In this document: positions 1 to 40,764 of the stretch, piece by piece
Layout: the number at the start of each line of letters is the position of its first letter
How positions within the stretch are numbered: position 1 is the first letter of the stretch
Virus record (IMG/VR): IMGVR_UViG_3300021560_000011
Coordinates: 1 to 40,855 of that record
Direction: 5' to 3' (one strand)
DNA: 40,855 bases
DNA from: a virus
Taxonomy: Duplodnaviria > Caudoviricetes
Program-made: the position numbers and the translations under genes
Notes under the pieces: generated by a model
Told to the model about the DNA's origin: nothing
The model's database searches: none
Seen by the model: only the letters and a program-made list of their open reading frames with translations

Positions 1-123
1 GGTTTATTACTTTCAATTAGCTTTGTTCTCATCTTGCCCTCTTTTTACATTTTCAGTCCCTTGGCAGGGGTCAGTTGTGTTGACTGGTTGGGGAGTTTTC
101 TTTACTACATTTAGTCTAGCAAA
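1..123. repeat. 123-bp exact direct repeat of the window end (circular-assembly overlap)
   Basis: 1-123 is identical to 40733-40855; the 40204..40764 ORF start lies inside it and gene order is continuous across the join, giving a 40,732-bp circle. Confidence 0.95.
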
Positions 124-588
124 CTCTCCAAAATACTTGACTGCGGCTCGATTATAAGCTTCTGCTGCTTCAGCTTCATCTCTATATCTACCAAGATTCA
201 TAAGTTTTCTATTAACCCTGATAGAAGATTTCCATGATTTAGACTCTTTATCCCAAGATACACCTTTATGCTCAGATGAGCAAGATTTTAAAAATCTATC
301 TTGCTTAGCACTATTTGCCATTTGTTGAGACATAGTAGCATATCTGAGATTACATTTTCTATTATCCAAAGTGTCTCTGCTTATATGGTCAACAGTCATT
401 TTTTTACCATCTCCTAATGGCAGTATTAATTGGTGCATATAAATCATCTTACCACCACTAAGCATAGTAATTGCATAACGTTTATCCTGGGCTATTTTTA
501 CTAGCCAACTATATGAGGATAATTTAGCATAATCCTCATCATCAACTATAGCAACTAAACTTGAAGCGTATAGGGGTATCTCTCTCAT
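13..588 (-). CDS. HNH endonuclease with C-terminal AP2-like DNA-binding domain (free-standing homing endonuclease 1)
   Basis: VDDEDY N-terminus, MHQLIL, VDHISRDTLDNRKCNLR HNH motif, KGVSW...NLGRY...EAAEAYN...KYFGEFARLN AP2 domain. Start moved from 624 to ATG 588 (MREIPL) because 624 is the -35 box and the paralog at 5169 also starts MREI. Confidence 0.9.
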   Translation of the reverse strand: MREIPLYASSLVAIVDDEDYAKLSSYSWLVKIAQDKRYAITMLSGGKMIYMHQLILPLGDGKKMTVDHISRDTLDNRKCNLRYATMSQQMANSAKQDRFLKSCSSEHKGVSWDKESKSWKSSIRVNRKLMNLGRYRDEAEAAEAYNRAAVKYFGEFARLNVVKKTPQPVNTTDPCQGTENVKRGQDENKAN

Positions 589-723
589 GATGTAACTGTA
601 GCATGGTTGGTAACACCTTGTCAACAGTTACCCTGTTTCCAGTGAGCCACTCAAGTCCGTTTTCAGCCACCTGATTCAGCATCGATACCCCATCCGGTAC
701 ACAGACCGTCAACCACTAACCCC
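67..723 (-). ncRNA. candidate structured RNA split by the HNH-AP2 gene (5' part ~625-723, 3' part ~67-110)
   Basis: Minus-strand long-range pairings: GGGGUUAGU(723-715)/ACUGACCCC(75-67), GUUGAC(713-708)/GUCAAC(84-79), UGGGG(692-688)/CCCCA(93-89). Local hairpins UCAGGU..ACUUGA and CUG-GAAA-CAG. Confidence 0.45.
589..624 (-). promoter_or_regulatory. sigma70-type promoter, leaderless, for HNH-AP2 gene 1
   Basis: TTGACA(624-619)-18 nt-TACAGT(600-595, preceded by TGc)-6 nt-ATG; no SD. Confidence 0.75.
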
Positions 724-727
724 TTTG

Positions 728-1879
728 TTAACTAGCATATGAGCGTGCAAACTTCGCTAACACACCCTGTTTACGCCTATTGTTCACGGAAACGTTTCCC
801 ATCCAACCGACGTGTCCTACCCTACTGTCGCCGTTGATTGGCTTTGCGAATGTATTACCATTCTCATCCTTTAACATATCCCAGTTCCGCGAAGGGTGAT
901 AGCGAATCTTAAAGAACTTCGCATTAACATAAACACAAGAACCAAAACTCATGGAACCAGGATTAACTACACCACCAACTGCTGTACCTGGTTTGTTATT
1001 AAAGAAATCAGGAACTTTGTCATCCATGATAACTTTAGCATTCAAGAACTTCTTACCAATGAAGGGATACTCAAAGTTAAGCGCATCAGCATTTGCCTTA
1101 TACACAGCAAAGTAAGCATGAATAAAATTCTGGTAAGTAATCTGATCCATCAACATATGTGTAGCTGGTCCACCAGTTCCAAGTGAAGTCAGGTTATACA
1201 TACCCTCAAGTTCATACATAAACTGAGAGTAAGTAGTAGCTGCACTTGTACCCCAGTGATTCTGCCACCAAGTATTAGGTGCTGCTTCTGAAATACCGCC
1301 AATAGTTAAAGCCGTGCCGGTAGCAGCAGCCCCACTAATACTATCCGAACCCGCAGTATTATAACTTATTAGCATTGGTAAAGGATTCACATGGTAACTA
1401 CCATTCACAGTGGAGGTTTTAGGAACCTGCATAGCACCAGCGCCTGAACCCCACATGAAAGCTTGTGCCCAGTTTTCCTGTAAGCCTAGTTCACTCTGTT
1501 GGATACGAGCTTTCACTAAGTTAATAATCTTATGCTCATTCTGAACTACTTCCTTAGTATTGTAACTAATAGGTGAAGCAATCTGGCGCCACTCAAACTG
1601 AGCCTGAGTGATACCATCAGTAGGTTGTGTACTTAAATCATCATAACCATCATAGGAGTCAGCAGGTGCAAGACCATACATTAATTCTTCAGCAATATAA
1701 GTTCCTCCATCAGCTTCTTCATAAGACTCACCTTTGATAAGATCGTACAGGATAGAATTTGTCGCACCGATATTATCTATCAAGGTCTTTCTATAGTTAG
1801 CCAAGCTGGTAGAGAATACAGAATCCAAATAAGTTGTGATATTATTTGGAGCACTTGCATTCCCAAAAGTTAGTCCCAC
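728..1879 (-). CDS. major capsid protein
   Basis: 383 aa directly after scaffold and portal; LIDNI, SYDGYD, AQFEWRQ, final G..GN...NNRRKQG pattern typical of podovirus HK97-fold capsids. Confidence 0.85.
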   Translation of the reverse strand: MGLTFGNASAPNNITTYLDSVFSTSLANYRKTLIDNIGATNSILYDLIKGESYEEADGGTYIAEELMYGLAPADSYDGYDDLSTQPTDGITQAQFEWRQIASPISYNTKEVVQNEHKIINLVKARIQQSELGLQENWAQAFMWGSGAGAMQVPKTSTVNGSYHVNPLPMLISYNTAGSDSISGAAATGTALTIGGISEAAPNTWWQNHWGTSAATTYSQFMYELEGMYNLTSLGTGGPATHMLMDQITYQNFIHAYFAVYKANADALNFEYPFIGKKFLNAKVIMDDKVPDFFNNKPGTAVGGVVNPGSMSFGSCVYVNAKFFKIRYHPSRNWDMLKDENGNTFAKPINGDSRVGHVGWMGNVSVNNRRKQGVLAKFARSYAS

Positions 1880-4698: not shown

Positions 4699-5169
4699 TT
4701 AATTAGAGAATTCACCAAAGTACTTCTTAGTTGCTATATTATAAGCTTCTACAGCTTTCTCTTTATCTGGAAAATAACCAAGATTATACCGAATTTTATT
4801 AGCATATATTCTAGCATTCCACTTATTTAGATGTGGTACATAACTTATACCACGATGCCCATTTTTATTATCTGATCTTAATTTAGAATTCTGCATGTTT
4901 TGAGATTTTGTAGCCCGTCTTAAGTTCTCTTCTTGATTATTTAAGCCATTGCCATCCTTATGATCTATTAAATCAGCACCTTCTAATGGTAAGATAAAAT
5001 GATGCATATAAATATGTTTTTTATCTATTATAGTGATAGCATATTTATATTTTCCTTTTATATTAAGAAACCAATCATGTTTCCTTATCATATCATATTT
5101 CCAGTCATCCACCAACGCAACACAGCCGGCACGCCGATCACCACGCTTCCATAGCGTTATCTCTCTCAT
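4699..5169 (-). CDS. HNH endonuclease with AP2-like domain (homing endonuclease 2), between terL and portal
   Basis: LVDD, YMHHFIL, IDHKDGNGLNNQEENLR, RGIS...YNLGYF...EAYN...KYFGEF; more AT-rich than neighbours. Confidence 0.92.
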   Translation of the reverse strand: MREITLWKRGDRRAGCVALVDDWKYDMIRKHDWFLNIKGKYKYAITIIDKKHIYMHHFILPLEGADLIDHKDGNGLNNQEENLRRATKSQNMQNSKLRSDNKNGHRGISYVPHLNKWNARIYANKIRYNLGYFPDKEKAVEAYNIATKKYFGEFSN

Positions 5170-5205
5170 GAATCCAGTTTAGCATGTCAGAACCAACCAT
5201 GTCAA
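5170..5205 (-). promoter_or_regulatory. sigma70-type promoter, leaderless, for HNH-AP2 gene 2
   Basis: TTGACA(5205-5200)-18 nt-TAAACT(5181-5176, preceded by TGc)-6 nt-ATG. Confidence 0.78.
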
Positions 5206-10938: not shown

Positions 10939-11305
10939 AAAACACCTTGGAGGTTGCAGGTTGCATCCTGACCCAAGGCATTTTCTCAGCCTAACCTCTA
11001 ACGTTAGAGGGTACTTAAAATATAACAAGAAGCAACCTGGAGCGTAACAACATTTCACCCCATAAAATGTTTTAGGCTACCTGCAACTCATTTGCAACCC
11101 GGCCCGGCCCGCTTTATACTTTAAAGTACTCCGAAACACAAAGCAGACTACCCCCCAGAGTACTCTCTAGAGGATAGTTGTTTATAGCTTATACTTATTT
11201 GTGGGAGAAAGGATCTCCCTTATTCCCCCTCACTAACTCACTCCCCTCCAAAAGTCACTACTAAGTCCGGGGGGAGTTAGTTTTTAGGCTAGGGAGTTAG
11301 TTTTT
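10939..11305 (-). other. non-coding hairpin cluster (structured RNA or processing sites)
   Basis: 12-bp stem 10939-10984, 16-bp palindrome 10995-11010, 14-bp stem 11147-11178, GGGAGA/TCTCCC 11203-11219, ACTAACTC/GAGTTAGT 11232-11281. The G-U pairs work only on the minus strand. Confidence 0.55.
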
Positions 11306-11334
11306 TAGTCTAGCCCCCCTGCCTTAGCTTTGCC

Positions 11335-11838
11335 TTAGCTCTGCAATCCTCCCAGCATTGCCGGATTCTCACGGAGGAACTTCCTCGCCGCTTCTTTCTT
11401 TGCCTCTTTATCTTCCGCGCTCATGGACTTATCGTATCCATTAAGCTTGGCAAGAGTCAGTACAGCGGCATCGATCATTGCCTTTTTGTTCTTATCCGCA
11501 TAGCTACCAGTATAAAGAGTGGTAGTAATGTTATTCTCACTGTCAGTCAGGAACCACCCATCATTTGCATCGCTGTTATAGGTTGCATCCTGAACCTGCT
11601 TGATAAGCCCTGCATGGATAAGATCCAGTAGAGCACTGGTATCGTTATTCATTGTGGCTAGGACTTCCTGAATACTGGTAGGCTTCTTTGGGACAGTGTA
11701 GGTCTTTTTCAGAAGCACATTGTCGAAAGTCTTAAGGTCAAAAACAGTCTTCTGAGACTCCTTAGTCTCCCCGCCTGTAGCAGGGCTAGCTTGCTGGCTT
11801 TCCTGCTCATCCTGTACCTGCACGTTTTCATCACTCAT
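11335..11838 (-). CDS. hypothetical early protein (167 aa)
   Basis: Start moved from 11994 to ATG 11838 (MSDENVQ; GAAAGG upstream) because 11994 overlaps a -35 box. Confidence 0.75.
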   Translation of the reverse strand: MSDENVQVQDEQESQQASPATGGETKESQKTVFDLKTFDNVLLKKTYTVPKKPTSIQEVLATMNNDTSALLDLIHAGLIKQVQDATYNSDANDGWFLTDSENNITTTLYTGSYADKNKKAMIDAAVLTLAKLNGYDKSMSAEDKEAKKEAARKFLRENPAMLGGLQS

Positions 11839-11961
11839 CTCTTTAACTACCTTTCTGCGCTTTGACCCGCGCCGGGTTGCTACTGCTAAACTCTGATCGA
11901 TTTCGGTTCTGATTACTAGTGCGCTCATTCCTTGGATTCCCCTTTCCTCTACTGAAAATCT

Positions 11962-22487: not shown

Positions 22488-24971
22488 ATGGTAAAAGGTT
22501 TCGGTCCTGTAAATGCTAAAGCTGCTTTCATAGCTGACTATCCTCAAGGCAAAGACTTTGAGACTAGTTATGCTCTTACTGGATATAGCGGTGACTTACT
22601 ACGTAAGTTCTGTAAGGAGCACAACCTTACATTAGAAGATTTTTATCGGACCTGCCTAATAAAAGAAGCACCACCAGACTCTCGCTTGGATAAAACAAAA
22701 TATGAAGCCACGATAGTAGAACTTAAGCAGACTTATGGTCCTATGCTGCTTGATGAACTTAACGGACTTAAGTTGAATCTCTTGATTCCTCTTGGTGAGT
22801 TAAGCTTCAACTACTTAACGAACTTAACCAGCATCCGTAAGTTCCGTGGTTCTGTTCTTCCTCCTACAGGTGAGTTAAGTATAAACAATGAGAATCTAAA
22901 AGTTCTACCTATCCTTGGTCCTTATCCTTACCTAAACCAGGAATACCGACTACGTGTAATAAGTCGTATAGATTTTGGTAAAATACCCAAGTACTTAAAT
23001 AATAATCCTATACCAGATAACCAATATAATATATGGGTAGCCCGGTCTGCATCAGCATTACGAGCCTATCTAGATAGAGCCTATAAAGAATGTGTAGCTA
23101 GGGAAGGCTTCCTAGTCTTTGATATTGAAACCTACCTTCAGATACCTATCTGTATAAGCTTCTGCTTTGATGGCTTTGAGTCTGTCTGTATACCTATCTT
23201 AGATTCTACTATCGATATAGACCAGCGAGCACTAATGATTGAGTTGGTGGATAGGATCTTACGCTCACCTCTTCCAAAGGTAAATCAGAATATAAAATAT
23301 GATTGGAAGATTCTCGAGCGTTGGGGATTCCAAGTCAATAACGTAATGGGAGACACTATGCTTGCTACTAGTGTTATCTACTGTGAGTTCCCAAAGAATT
23401 TAGGTTTCCTTACTTCTATCTATACTGAACTTCCCTACTTTAAGGATGAAGGTAAAGAATTTGATCCTGATAAAGGTAAGCGTGATAGATACTATCTATA
23501 TAACGCTAAGGATTCTCTTGCTACAAGTCAGATCTACACACAACAAAAAATAGAGCTGATTGAAACTGGCACGAAGTTAGTATATGATAACTTGACAACT
23601 ATTCTACCTATCTACAGAAGAATGGAAGATAGGGGTTTCAGAATTGATGATACTAAGAGACAGAAGCTTTTAGCTCGATACCAAAGCTTACTTCATGTTC
23701 AAGAGTTAAAGTGCAGGAAACTTTTAGGTTGGGATTACTTTAATCCTATTAGTCATAAGCAATGTCATGATGCTATCTTTGAAGAGTTAGGATACAAAAA
23801 ACTACGTGGGATGAAATCCACTAAAGATGGTAAACCTAGCACTGATGAGGAATCTCTAGACTATCTTTCTGTACATGGTATCGCGGAACGCAGTCCAAAC
23901 TTTGGGCCTGTAGTACTTGCAGCTATCATAGGAGCTAGGAAGGTCAAAAAAGTTCTTGAGATCCTAGAATTACCAACTTATCCTGATGGCCGTTTCAGGT
24001 GCGAGTATAACTTGACTGGAACTGAAAATGCCAGAACAAGTGCAGGTAAGTCTACAGATCAGATTTTAGTACTGGATGGGAATAAGATATTTATAGTTAA
24101 TTTAGGTCATAGTCTCCAAACTATCGGTAAACATGGATTCACTATTGATGGGATTACATATGGGAAGGATCTACGTAGTATCTTTGTACCTAGTCATGGT
24201 TACAACTTTGTAGAGTGTGATTTAAACTCTGCTGAAGCTAGAGTGGATCGGGTTTTAAGTGGAAACCTGGATATGAGTATCTTCGAGCCGCCTGGTATTC
24301 ACAGACTGACAGGATCTTGGCTCTACTCATGTAAACCTAATGAGATTAAGAAAAACACTCTAGTAGATGGAGTGGACAGATATCATATGGCTAAGACTGT
24401 CAGACATGCTGCTGAAAGAAACATGGGACCAGACAGACTTGTCATGATGACACAACGTCCATTGAAGGAATGTAAAGATATTCTAGATAAGCTTCATGGT
24501 TTCCAACCTGAAATTAAAAGAAGTTTTCATAGCGGAATTAAGAATGCTTTAGATATGCCAAGTCACTGTCTTGTAGCTCCGAATGGTAGAAGAAGAGATT
24601 TCTTTGATAGGATTGAGAAGGAAACTTATAATCAGGCTATTAGTTTCTTGCCACAAGCTATAGTTAGTGACCAGACTAAGTTTGCTGGTATAGGACGTAC
24701 CTTCAGTGACAACAGTATCTACTCTTGGGCACACTTGCTAGAAGAAGGTCATGATGGTATTCTAGCGGAGGTTAAGAAAGGACGTGAGCTAGAATTTGCT
24801 GAGTTGTATAAACGAAACGTTGAGAGTGAACCGATTGACTTTAGGAAGTGTACACTATCTAGAGATATTCGGCTAGTAATACCTTGTGAAGTGGCTGTAG
24901 GTGAAAGTTGGTTCGAGGAAGATTTAAAGGAAGTGCAGCTCTCTGAGCTTGCTACTACTAGAGTTATCTAA
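22488..24971 (+). CDS. polA: family A DNA polymerase with N-terminal UDG-like domain and 3'-5' exonuclease
   Basis: ExoI FDIET, ExoII NQNIKYD, ExoIII YNAKD; PSTDEESL, TENARTS; motif A ECDLNSAEARV, motif B AKTVRH, motif C GHDGI; N-terminal VKGFGPVNAK...GYSGDLL UDG-family-4-like fold. Confidence 0.92.
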   Translation: MVKGFGPVNAKAAFIADYPQGKDFETSYALTGYSGDLLRKFCKEHNLTLEDFYRTCLIKEAPPDSRLDKTKYEATIVELKQTYGPMLLDELNGLKLNLLIPLGELSFNYLTNLTSIRKFRGSVLPPTGELSINNENLKVLPILGPYPYLNQEYRLRVISRIDFGKIPKYLNNNPIPDNQYNIWVARSASALRAYLDRAYKECVAREGFLVFDIETYLQIPICISFCFDGFESVCIPILDSTIDIDQRALMIELVDRILRSPLPKVNQNIKYDWKILERWGFQVNNVMGDTMLATSVIYCEFPKNLGFLTSIYTELPYFKDEGKEFDPDKGKRDRYYLYNAKDSLATSQIYTQQKIELIETGTKLVYDNLTTILPIYRRMEDRGFRIDDTKRQKLLARYQSLLHVQELKCRKLLGWDYFNPISHKQCHDAIFEELGYKKLRGMKSTKDGKPSTDEESLDYLSVHGIAERSPNFGPVVLAAIIGARKVKKVLEILELPTYPDGRFRCEYNLTGTENARTSAGKSTDQILVLDGNKIFIVNLGHSLQTIGKHGFTIDGITYGKDLRSIFVPSHGYNFVECDLNSAEARVDRVLSGNLDMSIFEPPGIHRLTGSWLYSCKPNEIKKNTLVDGVDRYHMAKTVRHAAERNMGPDRLVMMTQRPLKECKDILDKLHGFQPEIKRSFHSGIKNALDMPSHCLVAPNGRRRDFFDRIEKETYNQAISFLPQAIVSDQTKFAGIGRTFSDNSIYSWAHLLEEGHDGILAEVKKGRELEFAELYKRNVESEPIDFRKCTLSRDIRLVIPCEVAVGESWFEEDLKEVQLSELATTRVI

Positions 24972-25054: not shown

Positions 25055-26233
25055 GTGGCTGAAAACTTCATCAGTGCAGTTATTAACCACACAGAACGTA
25101 ATGAAAGTCCAACAAGTTTTTGGAAGTGGAGTAGTTTCTCAACGATTTCGTCAGTTATGCGGGACCGTTGCTATCTTAAATTTGGAGATAGTTTCCTCTT
25201 CCCTAATCTTTATATTATGCTTTTGGCTGAAAGCTCGGGCCATAGAAAAAATGCCCCTGTTGAATTAAGCCAAGGGTTAGTAACTAATATAGCTGGCATA
25301 AAATCTATAGCTGGCAGAGCTTCTGTGGAAGGTATACTTGATGAATTAGCTGTGGCTGAAACTGATAACTTTGGTAAACTTGTGAAGTGTAACTCAGCTA
25401 CCTTTTTCTCAACTGAACTTAGTGCTGGTATAGTGAATAATGTAGAAGGTATTAAGATACTTACCGATATATATGATTACAAGCCTACACCTTATCAACA
25501 TAGGCTTCGTACCGGACCCAAGTTCGACTTAACGCGGGTCGTATTTTCAATGTTTTCTGCAAGTAACGAAAAGATGCTGCAAGGATTCTTTAATGATGCT
25601 ATCATAGGTGGTGGCTTTATTGCCCGTACCTTACTTATAATGCCGGATGAGTTCCGTGAACCTAATAGTTTACTTAGAGTTGACCATGATGCTAGGAAGG
25701 AAAGTAAAGACCGTGTAGTTCAACACCTGAAAAAGGTAGCTCAAGTTACTGGTGAGTTTGGTTTTATAGAAGAAGCTATTACAGAATACGAATCATGGTA
25801 TAGTCCATTCAGAAAGGAGTATAACAAAAGAAAAGAAACTACAGGTTTTATAGGTAGAGTACATACTCATGTATTAAAGTTAAGTATGATACTTGCAGCG
25901 AATGACCTAACAAAGTGTATTCAGAAAAGACACATTGAGCAAGCAATCGAGGAATGCCTGAGTTTAATTAAAAACTACAGCATGTTTACTATGAGCAACG
26001 CAAAAACAGATTTGGGTAGTGTTGGTGGGGTGATTGTTCTTGAATTGGCAGCAGCTAAAGATAACATGCTTGCCAGAAAGAGTATAGTTAGAGCACACTG
26101 GCAGAACTTAGATATAACACTGCTAGATAAAGCTAGGGATGCTTTAGTGGAAGCGGGGATGTTACAAATTCACATGATGAAAGAAGGCGAATACTGGAAA
26201 TTAACACAAACAGCACTGGAGATGTTGAAGTGA
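25055..26233 (+). CDS. DUF3987-like AAA+ helicase with C-terminal winged helix
   Basis: ESPTSFWKWS, PNLYIMLLAESSGHRKNAP (Walker A-like), STELS, LTDIYD, GGGFIAR; follows polA. Confidence 0.75.
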   Translation: MAENFISAVINHTERNESPTSFWKWSSFSTISSVMRDRCYLKFGDSFLFPNLYIMLLAESSGHRKNAPVELSQGLVTNIAGIKSIAGRASVEGILDELAVAETDNFGKLVKCNSATFFSTELSAGIVNNVEGIKILTDIYDYKPTPYQHRLRTGPKFDLTRVVFSMFSASNEKMLQGFFNDAIIGGGFIARTLLIMPDEFREPNSLLRVDHDARKESKDRVVQHLKKVAQVTGEFGFIEEAITEYESWYSPFRKEYNKRKETTGFIGRVHTHVLKLSMILAANDLTKCIQKRHIEQAIEECLSLIKNYSMFTMSNAKTDLGSVGGVIVLELAAAKDNMLARKSIVRAHWQNLDITLLDKARDALVEAGMLQIHMMKEGEYWKLTQTALEMLK

Positions 26234-37070: not shown

Positions 37071-38846
37071 CTAGTACCAATTAGTTCCATCAAAAGTTAA
37101 ATCTAGAGCTGTATTTTGTGTCATACTATGGGTTCCAGGTATATTTCCACCACCACCTACAGTCAAAGTTCCAGTATCAGTTTTTACTAGTCTAATTCTT
37201 CTTCCAATCCAGCCACCAGTTATTGTTAATACACTGGTCACACCAGTTATAGTTGAAACTAAATTAAATGGTGTAGCTATTGAAGCAGCAGAAGAAATCG
37301 GACCACCAGTAATACTATCAATACCTAAATTATTTATAATTATACCATTAATAGCCCCAGTAATATTAATAGGCCCAGATGTATTACCTGTCAAATCATT
37401 TCCAATTATAGTTCCACCAAAAGTGCCAGCAATAGAAATACCATAGTTTTGATGCCCAGAACCTGCTCTTCCATTACCTATTGTATTATTTTCTATATGT
37501 ATATCAGTAAGCCCCCCAACCATAGATATTCCATGATGAGCAGCATTAGAAAGATTATTATCTGTTATATAATTATTACATATTATAAGATTGCTAGCTC
37601 CTGGACCTACAGCTATTCCATCAAAACTAGCAGATTGAATATTACAACCTAGTATTTGTACATTTTTAGGGCTACAAGCAGCTACTGAACCTATATCAAT
37701 AGCATAGCCTTGTGATAATGTCTGACCATTAACATGACAATTAGAAAGCCTTATAGAATTAAATGCTGTAGTGACACCCTGAAAACTAATAGCAGCACTT
37801 CCATATCCATCAAATTGTAAGTTATCAGCCCAAATATTCATGCATTTACCAGTAGTTGTAGTTGCTTGAAGGAGTAAACTATAAATACCAGCAAATCCAG
37901 AATTAGCAAGCATAGCTCCATCTACATCTAATAACCAAACACCTGTAGCATTAAAATTAGATCCAGTAACATAACCGCCAATCACACAATTCGCGATATA
38001 AATATTACTTGCTGGTCCGATAACTTTAATACCACCTTGTGGTTGCCCATCATTTACACCATTAACCCAAGAACTTTCATATACGTATAAAGAAGCTGGT
38101 TGTTCCGCAAGAATTCCAAAATATCCATTAAGTAGCTGAGTATTTAGTACCCTTAAATTAGCATTACCGAGTGAATGTATTAGTGCAAAAGGAGGTACGT
38201 TTGAAACTGCTGATAGACTTATATTCCTAAACTCACAAATCGAACCAGCAGTAAGTTCAAACATATGATAATTACTAGTTGTACCAGGTCTAGTAATTGT
38301 AGCCCCAAAGTAACCAGCACCCTCTATAACATAAGCTGATACTGGAATATTAATTGTAGCATAAGAAGTAACATTTTGTGGTATGTAAATTTTAGCTTGA
38401 TAACCAACACTAGAACTTTTAGGTGCATGTATAATAGCTTCCTGAATTCCACCAGTAGCACTACTTAGAGTCCAAGCACCACTATGACTATTAGCTGGAG
38501 TAAAAGTTAAAGTTTGATTTGTGCTACCTTCAGTTGCAGTTCCCCCTGTAATTAGAACAGCTTCAGCAGCACCAGTACCCCCACTTATATATAAATAATG
38601 TTTAGAATCAGCTCCATTTACACCCAGAGGAACATTAGGAAGTGTTATAGTATTAGAAATACCACCAATTAAATTTCCACCAGGAGAGATAGCTGCAAAA
38701 TTATAGTCTAGATTATTATATATATTATAAGAACTGCTAGTATCTGTAACAGTATGAAGTGCATTCCACTCATTAGGCCCTATGAGACTAGGGTCAGTCT
38801 GTTCAGGTTTTGCTGAAACAAAGCTATGTTTTACTGTAATTGACAA
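37071..38846 (-). CDS. tailspike with right-handed beta-helix (putative depolymerase)
   Basis: GIQEAI, Asn-ladder repeats (I.NN.I, GN.L.GN), N-terminal KHSFVS...P.EWN..H anchor, C-terminal L.FDGTNWY. Confidence 0.8.
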   Translation of the reverse strand: MSITVKHSFVSAKPEQTDPSLIGPNEWNALHTVTDTSSSYNIYNNLDYNFAAISPGGNLIGGISNTITLPNVPLGVNGADSKHYLYISGGTGAAEAVLITGGTATEGSTNQTLTFTPANSHSGAWTLSSATGGIQEAIIHAPKSSSVGYQAKIYIPQNVTSYATINIPVSAYVIEGAGYFGATITRPGTTSNYHMFELTAGSICEFRNISLSAVSNVPPFALIHSLGNANLRVLNTQLLNGYFGILAEQPASLYVYESSWVNGVNDGQPQGGIKVIGPASNIYIANCVIGGYVTGSNFNATGVWLLDVDGAMLANSGFAGIYSLLLQATTTTGKCMNIWADNLQFDGYGSAAISFQGVTTAFNSIRLSNCHVNGQTLSQGYAIDIGSVAACSPKNVQILGCNIQSASFDGIAVGPGASNLIICNNYITDNNLSNAAHHGISMVGGLTDIHIENNTIGNGRAGSGHQNYGISIAGTFGGTIIGNDLTGNTSGPINITGAINGIIINNLGIDSITGGPISSAASIATPFNLVSTITGVTSVLTITGGWIGRRIRLVKTDTGTLTVGGGGNIPGTHSMTQNTALDLTFDGTNWY

Positions 38847-39384
38847 TGTGAACCTCCATGTTACGTATGTCTATAGCTAATAACTCTTCATAAGTTACTG
38901 CCGGCTTAGATTTCTTTACTGCCTTGGTTATTCTGTTATAGGGTTCTTTAGATTCTGGTGTAGTACTTATAGATTCAAAACCGCACTCTATCAATAGCAT
39001 CTTAAGCTCATCAGAATCCATAGCACATACATGAAAATCCTGTGGGCTAGTTTGCCTACCATAAAGTGTAGCTTCCCAAAAATCCTTCATACCTAACATA
39101 TTCTTACGCCACCGTTGAGCACATTCCCAGAAATCAGGATAACTTATAAGCAGCATACCATCTACCTTAAGTACTCTTGAGCATTCCAGAAGTATCTTAC
39201 GATGGAACCGCTTCTGAATATGCTCTATACAGTGGAAGAAGAGAATTTCCTCTACCGACCCATCAGTATAAGGAAAGTCTTTCTTAACAAAATCAAGAAC
39301 AAAATCAGGTTTACAATTCCTGTCACTATCGATATTAACATAACCTTTGAATTTACTAAGCCCGCTTCCTAGATTTAGTTTCAT
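38824..39384 (-). CDS. class I SAM-dependent methyltransferase
   Basis: KLNLGSG, YVNID, FPYTDGSV, HCIEHI, ECSRVLKVDG. Confidence 0.88.
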   Translation of the reverse strand: MKLNLGSGLSKFKGYVNIDSDRNCKPDFVLDFVKKDFPYTDGSVEEILFFHCIEHIQKRFHRKILLECSRVLKVDGMLLISYPDFWECAQRWRKNMLGMKDFWEATLYGRQTSPQDFHVCAMDSDELKMLLIECGFESISTTPESKEPYNRITKAVKKSKPAVTYEELLAIDIRNMEVHIVNYSKT

Positions 39385-40138
39385 GTTTCACCATAGCAAG
39401 ATATTCTGCATCTCTGTCTTTTCTGTTGACACTGCTAGCACTTAACCCCGGTCCATTTTTATCTACCGGAGTGACTTTATTCAGCATCTCGAAGTACTTT
39501 TTGTAAGCATCCCTGTTGGCTTCATGTATAACCTCAGGCCATAAAATATGACCACATTCACATTCGCAGTTGATACATATTTTCGCATCCGGGTTAAGTT
39601 GTTTAAGCTTTATACAGTAATATACATCCTCAGTAAAATTCGGCCCGGTCATAAAATAAGGTTCCCTCAGGTGACTAAGAGGCTCAACTTTAAGTAGTGC
39701 AAAAGAAAATCCTACAGCTTCCTTGTTAACTATTCCAGTTCTAGGAAGCTCTTTATCTATTACAAGTCCTTGCTCCTTATCCCTAGAGAAACTCATATAG
39801 TCAAAAGGATAACCACGGACACAGATCTTACCAGCAGCTACATCCGCTTTACAGTCCAACAGTTGCTTTAGTCCGTAGTTAGGATTTACAATAACATCAT
39901 CATCCAAAAATAAGATATAGTCAGCTGAAGCTTCCAGTGCAACCCGCGCTGTCATGTTTCTCATTCTGTCTATACTCATCCTAGCAGGATTAGATATAAT
40001 AAAATCCACTTCAGGGTAACTCCGACCCAAGCGGAACCAAAACTGGCAGTGATTCGTATAAGCAGGATATTGCATCTCAGTCAGACTATTAGTTCCAACC
40101 ACGATACGTGTTCTCTTCTTCTTCTTCTTAATAGGCAT
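39356..40138 (-). CDS. GT-A fold (GT2-like) glycosyltransferase
   Basis: DRMRN, DYILFLDDDV (DxD), AVGFSFALL, TEDVYYC, CGHI; start moved to ATG 40138 with RBS GGAG. Confidence 0.85.
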   Translation of the reverse strand: MPIKKKKKRTRIVVGTNSLTEMQYPAYTNHCQFWFRLGRSYPEVDFIISNPARMSIDRMRNMTARVALEASADYILFLDDDVIVNPNYGLKQLLDCKADVAAGKICVRGYPFDYMSFSRDKEQGLVIDKELPRTGIVNKEAVGFSFALLKVEPLSHLREPYFMTGPNFTEDVYYCIKLKQLNPDAKICINCECECGHILWPEVIHEANRDAYKKYFEMLNKVTPVDKNGPGLSASSVNRKDRDAEYLAMVKHETKSRKRA

Positions 40139-40151
40139 CAGAATCTCCAAG

Positions 40152-40187
40152 AAAAAGGCAGCCAGAAAATCCTCCACCCTGACTGCC
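40152..40187 (-). terminator. intrinsic terminator after the capsid gene pair
   Basis: GGCAGUCAG...CUGGCUGCC stem followed by UUUUU on the minus strand. Confidence 0.75.
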
Positions 40188-40203
40188 CATGACGTGAGGG
40201 GAA

Positions 40204-40764
40204 TCACATCTGTCTAACAAAAGTTCTTAACAAAACTGTAGCAGCAAGTCTAGTATCTGTAGCATTAGTAGCGGAACCAGCCATAGTAGCAAAGTTATCA
40301 AGTAGGATAGCTTGAGCACTGGCAGCACTTGCAGCAGTACCAAAAGCATTATTAACAGTATCAATAGTTAAAGCATCACCACTAACACTTGCAGTAGCTC
40401 CAGAAGCCCAACTTACAGTAGTAGCGGAACGAGTGGCACGAACTACTGCCGACATACAGACTCCTGAAACTACAGCCTCTCCATAAGCAGGATAGACAAT
40501 AGGTCCAGCAGCTACTCCGAAATAAAATAAACTAGGTGCGGAAGCATTAGCAGCCGCCGCAGTACTTGGAAGTACAACTTGAAGTCCATCTTCCCAACCA
40601 GCAGGTAAACCATTAGAATAAGCTGGAGGTTGGGGAGTTGCACTCAGGTTTAAAATAAGAGGCGTACCAACAGGGATTGTAGCTGCCGCAGCAGAACTAT
40701 CAGCATTCCTAACACTATTAATATATCTTTCCGGTTTATTACTTTCAATTAGCTTTGTTCTCAT
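40204..40764 (-). CDS. probable capsid decoration/cement protein, Ala/Ser/Thr-rich
   Basis: First structural gene after MCP (across the circular join) and before a terminator; IPVGTP, FGVAAGPI....YG pattern. Confidence 0.6.
   Translation of the reverse strand: MRTKLIESNKPERYINSVRNADSSAAAATIPVGTPLILNLSATPQPPAYSNGLPAGWEDGLQVVLPSTAAAANASAPSLFYFGVAAGPIVYPAYGEAVVSGVCMSAVVRATRSATTVSWASGATASVSGDALTIDTVNNAFGTAASAASAQAILLDNFATMAGSATNATDTRLAATVLLRTFVRQM

What the first reader, a model, noticed from the sequence alone, without database searches (positions are those of the whole stretch)
30..730. HNH-AP2 endonuclease gene nested inside a structured RNA that could loop it out of the capsid mRNA
Seen: 4 nt after the MCP stop, the minus-strand RNA begins GGGGUUAGU-G-GUUGAC-GGU...UGGGG. 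About 600 nt later, past the AP2 domain, comes the complementary CCCCA-ACC-A-GUCAAC-ACA-ACUGACCCC (93-67); UGCUG/UAGUA may extend the pairing inward. The 5' part has its own hairpins (UCUG/CGGA; UCAGGU..CUG-AAAA-CGG..ACUUGA; CUG-GAAA-CAG). The two paralogous endonucleases stop within a few codons of GEF, whereas this one runs ~30 extra codons through the 3' arm, as expected if the ORF was inserted into a pre-existing RNA. I see no group I (P7 R/S) or group II (domain V) signature, and the site is intergenic. Inference: either an undescribed phage ncRNA invaded by a homing endonuclease, or an RNA+ORF mobile unit. In the second case the closing stem would bring the MCP stop within ~40 nt of the next start (32) and offset the insertion without splicing. 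An RNA cofactor/guide role is possible but unsupported.
Basis: partly seen in the sequence, partly recalled or inferred. Interest (0 to 1): 0.75.

Follow-up and report, generated by a model that had tools for sequence, protein, structure and literature searches.

The report
Homing nuclease clamped over capsid-operon switch
In a soil phage, a selfish nuclease gene sits between the capsid gene and a predicted capsid-cement gene, and the RNA on either side is predicted to pair across it, likely holding open a small conserved RNA switch that would otherwise damp the cement gene.

Summary
The long-range pairing is real, but it is not a large RNA invaded by an ORF. Three parts. (1) A free-standing HNH-AP2 gene (588-13) with its own sigma-70-like promoter and a likely leaderless start. 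(2) A ~55-nt RNA motif (86-30) just before the predicted capsid-cement gene, present in 9 of 10 closest relatives, 6 of them ORF-less: a covarying 4-bp hairpin, a T-loop-like element and a probable pseudoknot over the Shine-Dalgarno. No Rfam match. (3) A derived 5' arm (724-705), found only in the 3 HNH-bearing alleles, that pairs with the motif's 5' half (88-66; predicted P near 1). One allele (L002) carries a different HNH (36% identical) and keeps the stem through G-U changes and shifted bulges. Arm and hairpin are mutually exclusive: hairpin probability is 0.01-0.13 with the arm and 0.97-1.0 in the HNH's own transcript. Best reading: the arm is an anti-operator that offsets the insertion without splicing. 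Rivals: RNase III clamp, loop-out re-initiation, by-product of the -35 box. Only three alleles, no double compensatory pair in the stem, no RNA data.

The parts
728..1879 (-). Major capsid protein gene (383 aa)
   Evidence: phrog_9953 major head protein, E 1e-25; ORF
705..724 (-). Derived 5' arm; pairs with 88-66 across the HNH gene; contains a TTGAC box (712-708)
   Evidence: P 0.99-1.0 for core pairs; present in window, L056, L002 only
625..704 (-). Non-conserved 5' flank with weak local hairpins; looks like a decayed earlier promoter copy (inferred)
   Evidence: 11-nt deletion in L056, absent in L002
595..624 (-). Sigma-70-like promoter TTGACA-18-TACAGT, 6 nt before the ATG: likely leaderless HNH transcript
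   Evidence: same layout before the paralogue at 5169 and in L002
13..588 (-). Free-standing HNH_3-AP2 endonuclease gene (191 aa); last 35 codons read through the motif and into the cement gene
66..88 (-). 3' arm of the long stem = 5' half of the native motif
30..86 (-). Native ~55-nt RNA motif: YAAC-WY-AAC leader, hairpin P1, T-loop-like element, pseudoknot onto the SD
   Evidence: 9 distinct loci; 18 invariant columns in 8 sequences; covariation
58..69 (-). P1 hairpin CCCU-GCCA-AGGG; loop GCC (65-63) is the 5' strand of the proposed pseudoknot
   Evidence: 3 of 4 pairs change on both sides
47..57 (-). RC-UGNAAAU-GY, T-loop-like (label recalled)
   Evidence: outer pair AU in 6, GC in 2 of 8 distinct rows
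36..41 (-). Shine-Dalgarno-like GAGG (41-38) overlapping GGC (38-36), the pseudoknot's 3' strand
   Evidence: sequence; GCC/GGC in 8 of 9 loci, ACC/GGU in L003
40204..40764 (-). Downstream gene (start also at 32 through the 123-nt terminal repeat): predicted capsid cement/decoration protein
   Evidence: AlphaFold pLDDT 85; top rows are capsid-stabilising proteins, Z 8-10; Foldseek E 0.003 and weaker

Best explanation
A free-standing HNH-AP2 gene lies just upstream of a conserved RNA motif that likely damps translation of the predicted capsid-cement gene, and a 20-nt arm after the capsid stop is predicted to pair across the HNH gene with the motif's 5' half, which would hold the motif open and offset the insertion without splicing. 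Shown: the anatomy, the motif's conservation and P1 covariation, the arm's confinement to HNH-bearing alleles, and its survival through an ORF swap. Computed: arm and P1 exclude each other. Inferred: that the pseudoknot forms and closes the SD (probably stabilised by a phage protein such as the cement protein), and that opening it compensates for ~600 untranslated bases in the capsid-operon mRNA. On the HNH's own leaderless transcript the arm is absent, so the motif can refold.
For: Motif in 9 of the 10 closest MCP relatives while 4-fold sites between window and ORF-less phages are 0.33-0.44 identical. P1: 8 cells change on both sides, 0 of 500 shuffles as high, slid controls 24-40% paired against 87.5%; RNAalifold finds P1 unaided. 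Loop GCC / SD-overlapping GGC in 8 of 9, ACC/GGU in L003, 5 bp in L007. Stem predicted in 3 of 3 HNH alleles; L002 has a 36%-identical HNH, unrelated sequence on both sides of the arm, and keeps 19 pairs. Letter changes in paired positions give G-U pairs on the mRNA strand. P1 probability 0.01-0.13 with arm, 0.97-1.0 from the HNH start. L005 lacks the motif inside the same clade, so an always-open state is viable. Two independent HNH_3 insertions at the same junction in motif-less relatives (L083, L122) show no comparable arm. SD-closing structures opened by a competing event are an established mechanism (PMC6728339, passages).
Against: Only 3 alleles from 2 HNH lineages; no pair of the long stem changes on both sides. 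The pseudoknot is 3-5 bp with one compensatory event and was not modelled energetically. Computed SD-region accessibility rises only from 0.52-0.60 to 0.70-0.74 (window, L056) and from 0.59 to 0.58-0.72 (L002). In L002 the arm's TTGAC is the -35 box of the HNH promoter, which explains part of its conservation without RNA pairing. Window and L002 are mosaic: the start of the cement gene is 38 of 44 identical at 4-fold sites, so the shared 3' side may be recent co-inheritance. The motif keeps all its invariant letters in HNH alleles, which is odd if it is simply switched off. A ribosome covering +9 after the MCP stop flips the switch in window and L056 but not in L002. The covariation shuffle ignores relatedness and the alignment was fitted to the structure.
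Confidence: 0.45

Rival explanations
1. Processing clamp: the stem is cut by RNase III (or merely holds the two halves together after cuts in the loop), removing the HNH segment from the abundant capsid mRNA and protecting the capsid and cement halves; the HNH's own transcript lacks the arm and escapes.
For: 16-20 bp stem closing an ORF, as in RNase III-excised rRNA intervening sequences (PMC4990558, abstract). RNase E processing of phage endonuclease transcripts is described (PMC2988022, passages). Explains why the motif stays intact.
Against: The stem is short and bulged in the middle; bulge positions differ between window and L002. The HNH has no clear SD, so the long mRNA should make little nuclease anyway (sequence). 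No RNA data.
Confidence: 0.2
2. Loop-out re-initiation: the stem brings the capsid stop near the cement start so that terminating ribosomes re-initiate.
For: Linear distance falls from 695 to about 38 nt in the window, about 48 in L002.
Against: 38 nt cut re-initiation by 80-100% in three E. coli pairs (PMC10666635, passages); ORF-less motif-bearing spacers are about 47-80 nt, so re-initiation is not the ancestral mode; a helix would stand in the path.
Confidence: 0.1
3. By-product: the arm is an old inverted copy, or chance complement, of the motif that supplied the HNH's -35 box (TTGAC is the complement of the motif's GTYAA); pairing is incidental.
For: TTGAC of the arm is the -35 box in L002; TAGTGGTTGAC also precedes the paralogue at 5205, where no partner exists; 4 equally strong duplexes occur elsewhere in the genome.
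Against: AGGGGTTAG is no promoter element yet is identical in window and L002 between unrelated flanks; in the window the arm is not part of the active promoter and still pairs; L056's change keeps a G-U pair; HNH alleles changed the motif's AA to UG, which extends the pairing.
Confidence: 0.2
4. A larger ncRNA, intron or guide RNA that hosts the endonuclease.
For: ORF enclosed by a stem; some local hairpins in the window's 5' flank.
Against: No Rfam match in the window or 8 relatives; L002 has only 65 nt before its ATG, nearly all arm and promoter; no ORF-less version with both arms in 69 distinct loci; no gene is interrupted.
Confidence: 0.05

Closest known systems
Free-standing HNH-AP2 (IPA-HNH) homing endonuclease genes of phages (PMC10448857, passages; T4 seg/mob genes, PMC2988022, passages)
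   Same: N-terminal HNH + C-terminal AP2, intergenic beside essential genes, patchy occupancy, unrelated endonucleases exchanged at one site (also PMC3706429, sections 19 and 25).
   Different: RNA structures described for these genes are local hairpins that mask the endonuclease's own RBS on upstream-started transcripts. Here a stem spans the whole ORF and targets the control element of the next gene.
T4 gene 32 translational operator pseudoknot (PMC3014915, passages); T4 segG lies between genes 59 and 32 (PMC2988022, table passage)
   Same: Small H-type pseudoknot upstream of a phage gene, with a free-standing endonuclease gene directly upstream.
   Different: There the pseudoknot is 67 nt upstream and nucleates gp32 binding; here it overlaps the SD, precedes a predicted cement gene, has a T-loop-like insert, and no binder is known. 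No spanning stem was seen in the passages read.
ORF-containing rRNA intervening sequences excised by RNase III (PMC4990558, abstract)
   Same: Selfish ORF closed off by a stem, no splicing core.
   Different: Those sit in 23S rRNA and both arms belong to the helix/element; here the site is an mRNA spacer, one arm is a native regulatory motif, and cleavage is untested.
Translational coupling by structure opening (UTNI; PMC6728339, passages)
   Same: A structure over the downstream initiation region that a competing event opens.
   Different: In the known cases the long-range pairing is the inhibitor and the ribosome opens it; here the long-range pairing would be the opener.

Membership tests
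Free-standing HNH-AP2 homing endonuclease | HNH nuclease domain plus C-terminal AP2 domain | tested here: met
   HNH_3 E 6e-6 above cut-off; AP2 E 6e-5, below the curated cut-off; phrog_99 E 6e-40
Free-standing HNH-AP2 homing endonuclease | Intergenic, optional among close relatives, near essential genes | tested here: met
   3 of the 10 closest relatives carry it between MCP and cement genes
Free-standing HNH-AP2 homing endonuclease | Site-specific cleavage and homing | not testable with these tools
   no assay
Group I / group II intron | Catalytic core matching family models | tested here: not met
   no Rfam match; L002 leaves 65 nt, too little for a core
Group I / group II intron | Interrupts a gene | tested here: not met
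   MCP and cement ORFs are whole and match ORF-less relatives
HEARO / omega RNA with IscB | Large structured RNA with an Rfam model; RuvC+HNH protein (features recalled; papers seen as search listing only) | tested here: not met
   no Rfam match; 191-aa protein with HNH_3 and AP2 only
RNase III-excised intervening sequence | ORF closed by a long stem | tested here: met
   16-20 bp, bulged
RNase III-excised intervening sequence | Located in rRNA | tested here: not met
   mRNA spacer of a phage operon
RNase III-excised intervening sequence | Cut by RNase III | not testable with these tools
   no RNA holder listed
Bulge-helix-bulge intron | Two 3-nt bulges on opposite strands around a 4-bp helix (recalled) | tested here: not met
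   1-nt bulges on the 3' strand in window; 2x1 loop and 1-nt bulge in L002
Gene-32-type operator pseudoknot / translational riboswitch | Conserved H-type pseudoknot at the initiation region | tested here: inconclusive
   P1 covaries; second helix 3-5 bp, one compensatory event
Gene-32-type operator pseudoknot / translational riboswitch | Match to a described family | tested here: not met
   no Rfam match in 6 ORF-less and 3 HNH-bearing loci
Gene-32-type operator pseudoknot / translational riboswitch | Binds a protein or metabolite and changes translation | not testable with these tools
   no assay

The most novel reading that the evidence does not exclude
A homing endonuclease cassette carries an RNA anti-operator: an arm that base-pairs over 600 nt with the host operon's own undescribed pseudoknot switch, neutralising the insertion without splicing, and that persists as a frame in which unrelated endonuclease genes are swapped. 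The host switch would be a new protein- or metabolite-sensing RNA that sets capsid-to-cement stoichiometry.
Probability: 0.3. Interest if true: 0.72.

Novelty: new variant of a known kind. Interest (0 to 1): 0.48.

Why it matters
Free-standing endonucleases must avoid harming neighbouring essential genes, and known fixes are introns, inteins, embedded promoters and local hairpins. A spanning stem aimed at the next gene's control element would be a further, splice-free route and a plausible precursor state for intron-like capture. Separately, the 55-nt motif is a compact candidate cis-regulator of a capsid-cement gene with natural with-arm, without-arm and motif-less alleles, so it is directly testable in a reporter.

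Tried and rejected
Rfam: no match at gathering in the window or 8 relatives; 5 weak matches (13-20 bits, far under cut-off) in 1-900. The two arms joined without the ORF were not scanned; natural ORF-less loci were scanned instead. tRNA/tmRNA-like reading of the GCCA after the stem: ARAGORN none, L002 has GCCU. More alleles: HNH queries in viral contigs gave only self and 2 distant hits each; tail-only searches of 5.8 billion proteins gave only the query cluster; cement-gene scan gave 8 loci, all known; no MCP relative in GTDB genomes; phage isolates only 22-28% identical. Motif elsewhere: pattern scans (24 loci; 118 loci from 30 of 64 parts; 14 loci) gave only known loci plus apparent chance hits; the model on 100 of these pre-selected loci gave at most 25.6 bits against 60-73, and 4 of the top 5 inspected lie in open frames with the fifth a duplicate. 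Motif as a late promoter: no second full copy in the genome. Antisense terminator reading: stem only 4 conserved pairs and G-U pairs favour the mRNA strand; not excluded. Looped-out form rebuilding the motif from the MCP end: fits the window, not L002. Ribosome toggle: not conserved. Sequencing runs: no RNA holder listed; DNA contigs show an L002-like replacement and an ORF-less relative, no precise skip. Similarities to SAM-II, pistol, twister, HDV-like and IS200/605 ends were considered from memory and did not map. Literature: 10 searches found no spanning stem of this kind; of the PMC10690425 supplements, 4 of 6 listed files were searched without a hit, two zip files and three large files could not be read, so the motif may be among its 10,006 candidates. 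The 4-fold values for ORF-less loci were out of register and are replaced.

Full report
Setting. The window is a complete virus record with direct terminal repeats (123 nt). On the minus strand: terminase, HNH paralogue, portal, a 276-aa gene, major capsid protein (1879-728), the HNH-AP2 gene (588-13) and a 186-aa gene starting at 32. The last folds (pLDDT 85, 44 sequences) like capsid cement/decoration proteins: the top rows of both searches are such proteins (Z 8-10, rmsd 2.5-4.1 over 101-146 residues; Foldseek E 0.003 and weaker). The host is unknown; no close isolate or prophage was found.

The observation. 724-705 pairs with 88-66 with core probabilities of 0.99-1.0. In an anchored control 0 of 147 random placements reach its -26.6 kcal/mol (2 of 147 reach L002's -23.5) and the genome's 3 other HNH genes give about -13. 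But 4 other duplexes as strong exist genome-wide, and 10-64 of 1000 shuffles match the wider duplex, so the case rests on relatives.

Relatives. MCP scans gave 10, 14 and 74 loci. I examined 88 of these 98 (10 repeated); 13 were duplicates and 6 ran off before the stop, leaving 69, three with under 70 nt downstream. Five of 69 have an HNH at this junction: the window type (L001), L056 (94% identical HNH), L002 (36% identical HNH) and two distant HNH_3 genes (L083, L122). The first three form one clade (100/100) within a 10-member group (84/90, not starred). All three have the stem. In L002 the arm lies 15 nt after the stop, is flanked by unrelated sequence, has different bulges, and still forms 19 pairs. 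Differences in paired positions give G-U pairs; none is a double change. L083 and L122 show only short pairings near the gene ends and sit in spacers without the motif.

The native motif. L005 lacks it. Eighteen columns are invariant in 8 sequences while 4-fold sites between the window and ORF-less phages are 0.33-0.44 identical. P1 covaries (3 of 4 pairs; 0 of 500 shuffles; slid controls far lower, with the caveats that kin share changes and the alignment was fitted), and RNAalifold recovers it. The loop's GCC matches a GGC overlapping the SD in 8 of 9 loci, with ACC/GGU in L003: a probable H-type pseudoknot. A model built from 8 of these finds only the 9 among 70 sources. Rfam has no match.

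The HNH cassette. TTGACA-18-TACAGT lies 6 nt before the ATG, the same layout as before the paralogue at 5169 and in L002; such scan hits are no more frequent than in shuffles, so it is the repeated spacing to the ATG that carries weight. A leaderless transcript is inferred. In L002 the -35 box is inside the arm. Both HNH lineages lost their stop and read through the motif in one frame; in L002 the stop overlaps the cement start.

Mechanism. Arm and P1 compete for the same bases: P1 probability is 0.01-0.13 in transcripts that include the arm and 0.97-1.0 in transcripts starting at the HNH ATG. I infer that the motif normally limits cement translation by closing the SD, probably helped by a protein, and that the arm evolved after the insertion to hold it open in the capsid-operon mRNA. 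L005 shows the open state is viable. Against this: computed SD accessibility changes little without the pseudoknot term, the motif is intact in HNH alleles (possibly recent co-inheritance), and part of the arm is a promoter box. Rivals are an RNase III clamp, re-initiation over the looped-out gap (disfavoured by PMC10666635, passages) and a by-product of the -35 box. An intron or guide RNA is unlikely.

Comparison and novelty. The protein is an ordinary free-standing HNH-AP2 endonuclease, and swaps of unrelated endonucleases at one site are known (PMC10448857, passages; PMC3706429, abstract and sections 19, 25). RNA structures reported at such genes mask their own RBS (PMC2988022, passages). 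The T4 gene 32 pseudoknot is the nearest operator (PMC3014915, passages). Ten literature searches found no stem spanning an endonuclease gene to pair with the next gene's control element; PMC11855218 was seen as abstract only, PMC10690425 as passages and 4 supplement files, with its alignment archives unreadable. Verdict: a real, modestly supported new variant; interest 0.48.

Noticed in passing
L082, L086, L090, L098, L100, L103-L106, L108, L113, L115 and others, MCP-cement spacer: Distant relatives have a different spacer hairpin whose loop RAGAYAAAY is repeated at the SD of the cement gene (motif in 22 of 69 loci, two copies in 16): looks like a two-site translational operator.
   Followed up: partly
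window 701-684; L056, L064, L067, L071 spacers: A TGYAC-N-GGTRYC element occurs in the window's 5' flank and in three distant ORF-less spacers, in two of them after a terminator-like hairpin. Meaning unknown.
   Followed up: no
window 5205-5169: The HNH-AP2 paralogue between terminase and portal has the same promoter-6 nt-ATG layout and the same MREI start; no flanking stem.
   Followed up: partly
window 25388-25749: Near-perfect 20-bp inverted repeat 340 nt apart inside the DUF3987 gene.
   Followed up: no
window 11087-11886: GC-rich inverted pairing (-31 kcal/mol), the strongest in the genome-wide scan.
   Followed up: no
L077, 35-70 nt after the MCP stop: ORF-less distant relative with a local GGGGUUAG...CUAACCCC hairpin that resembles the arm; L007's P1 and loop also read GGGTTAGCC like L002's arm. 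Chance or source of the arm is open.
   Followed up: partly
L083:3654-4076, L122:497-916: Independent HNH_3 insertions at the MCP-cement junction: the site is a repeated target.
   Followed up: yes
window 728-1879 against L002: MCP divergence is mosaic (4-fold sites 16 of 16 identical in one block, 2 of 10 in another), as expected from recombination or homing co-conversion.
   Followed up: partly
window 38824-40207: An Anp1-like glycosyltransferase-type gene and a methyltransferase gene follow the cement gene in this family; possibly virion or DNA modification.
   Followed up: no
window 22488-24971: Family A DNA polymerase with an N-terminal uracil-DNA-glycosylase-like domain.
   Followed up: no
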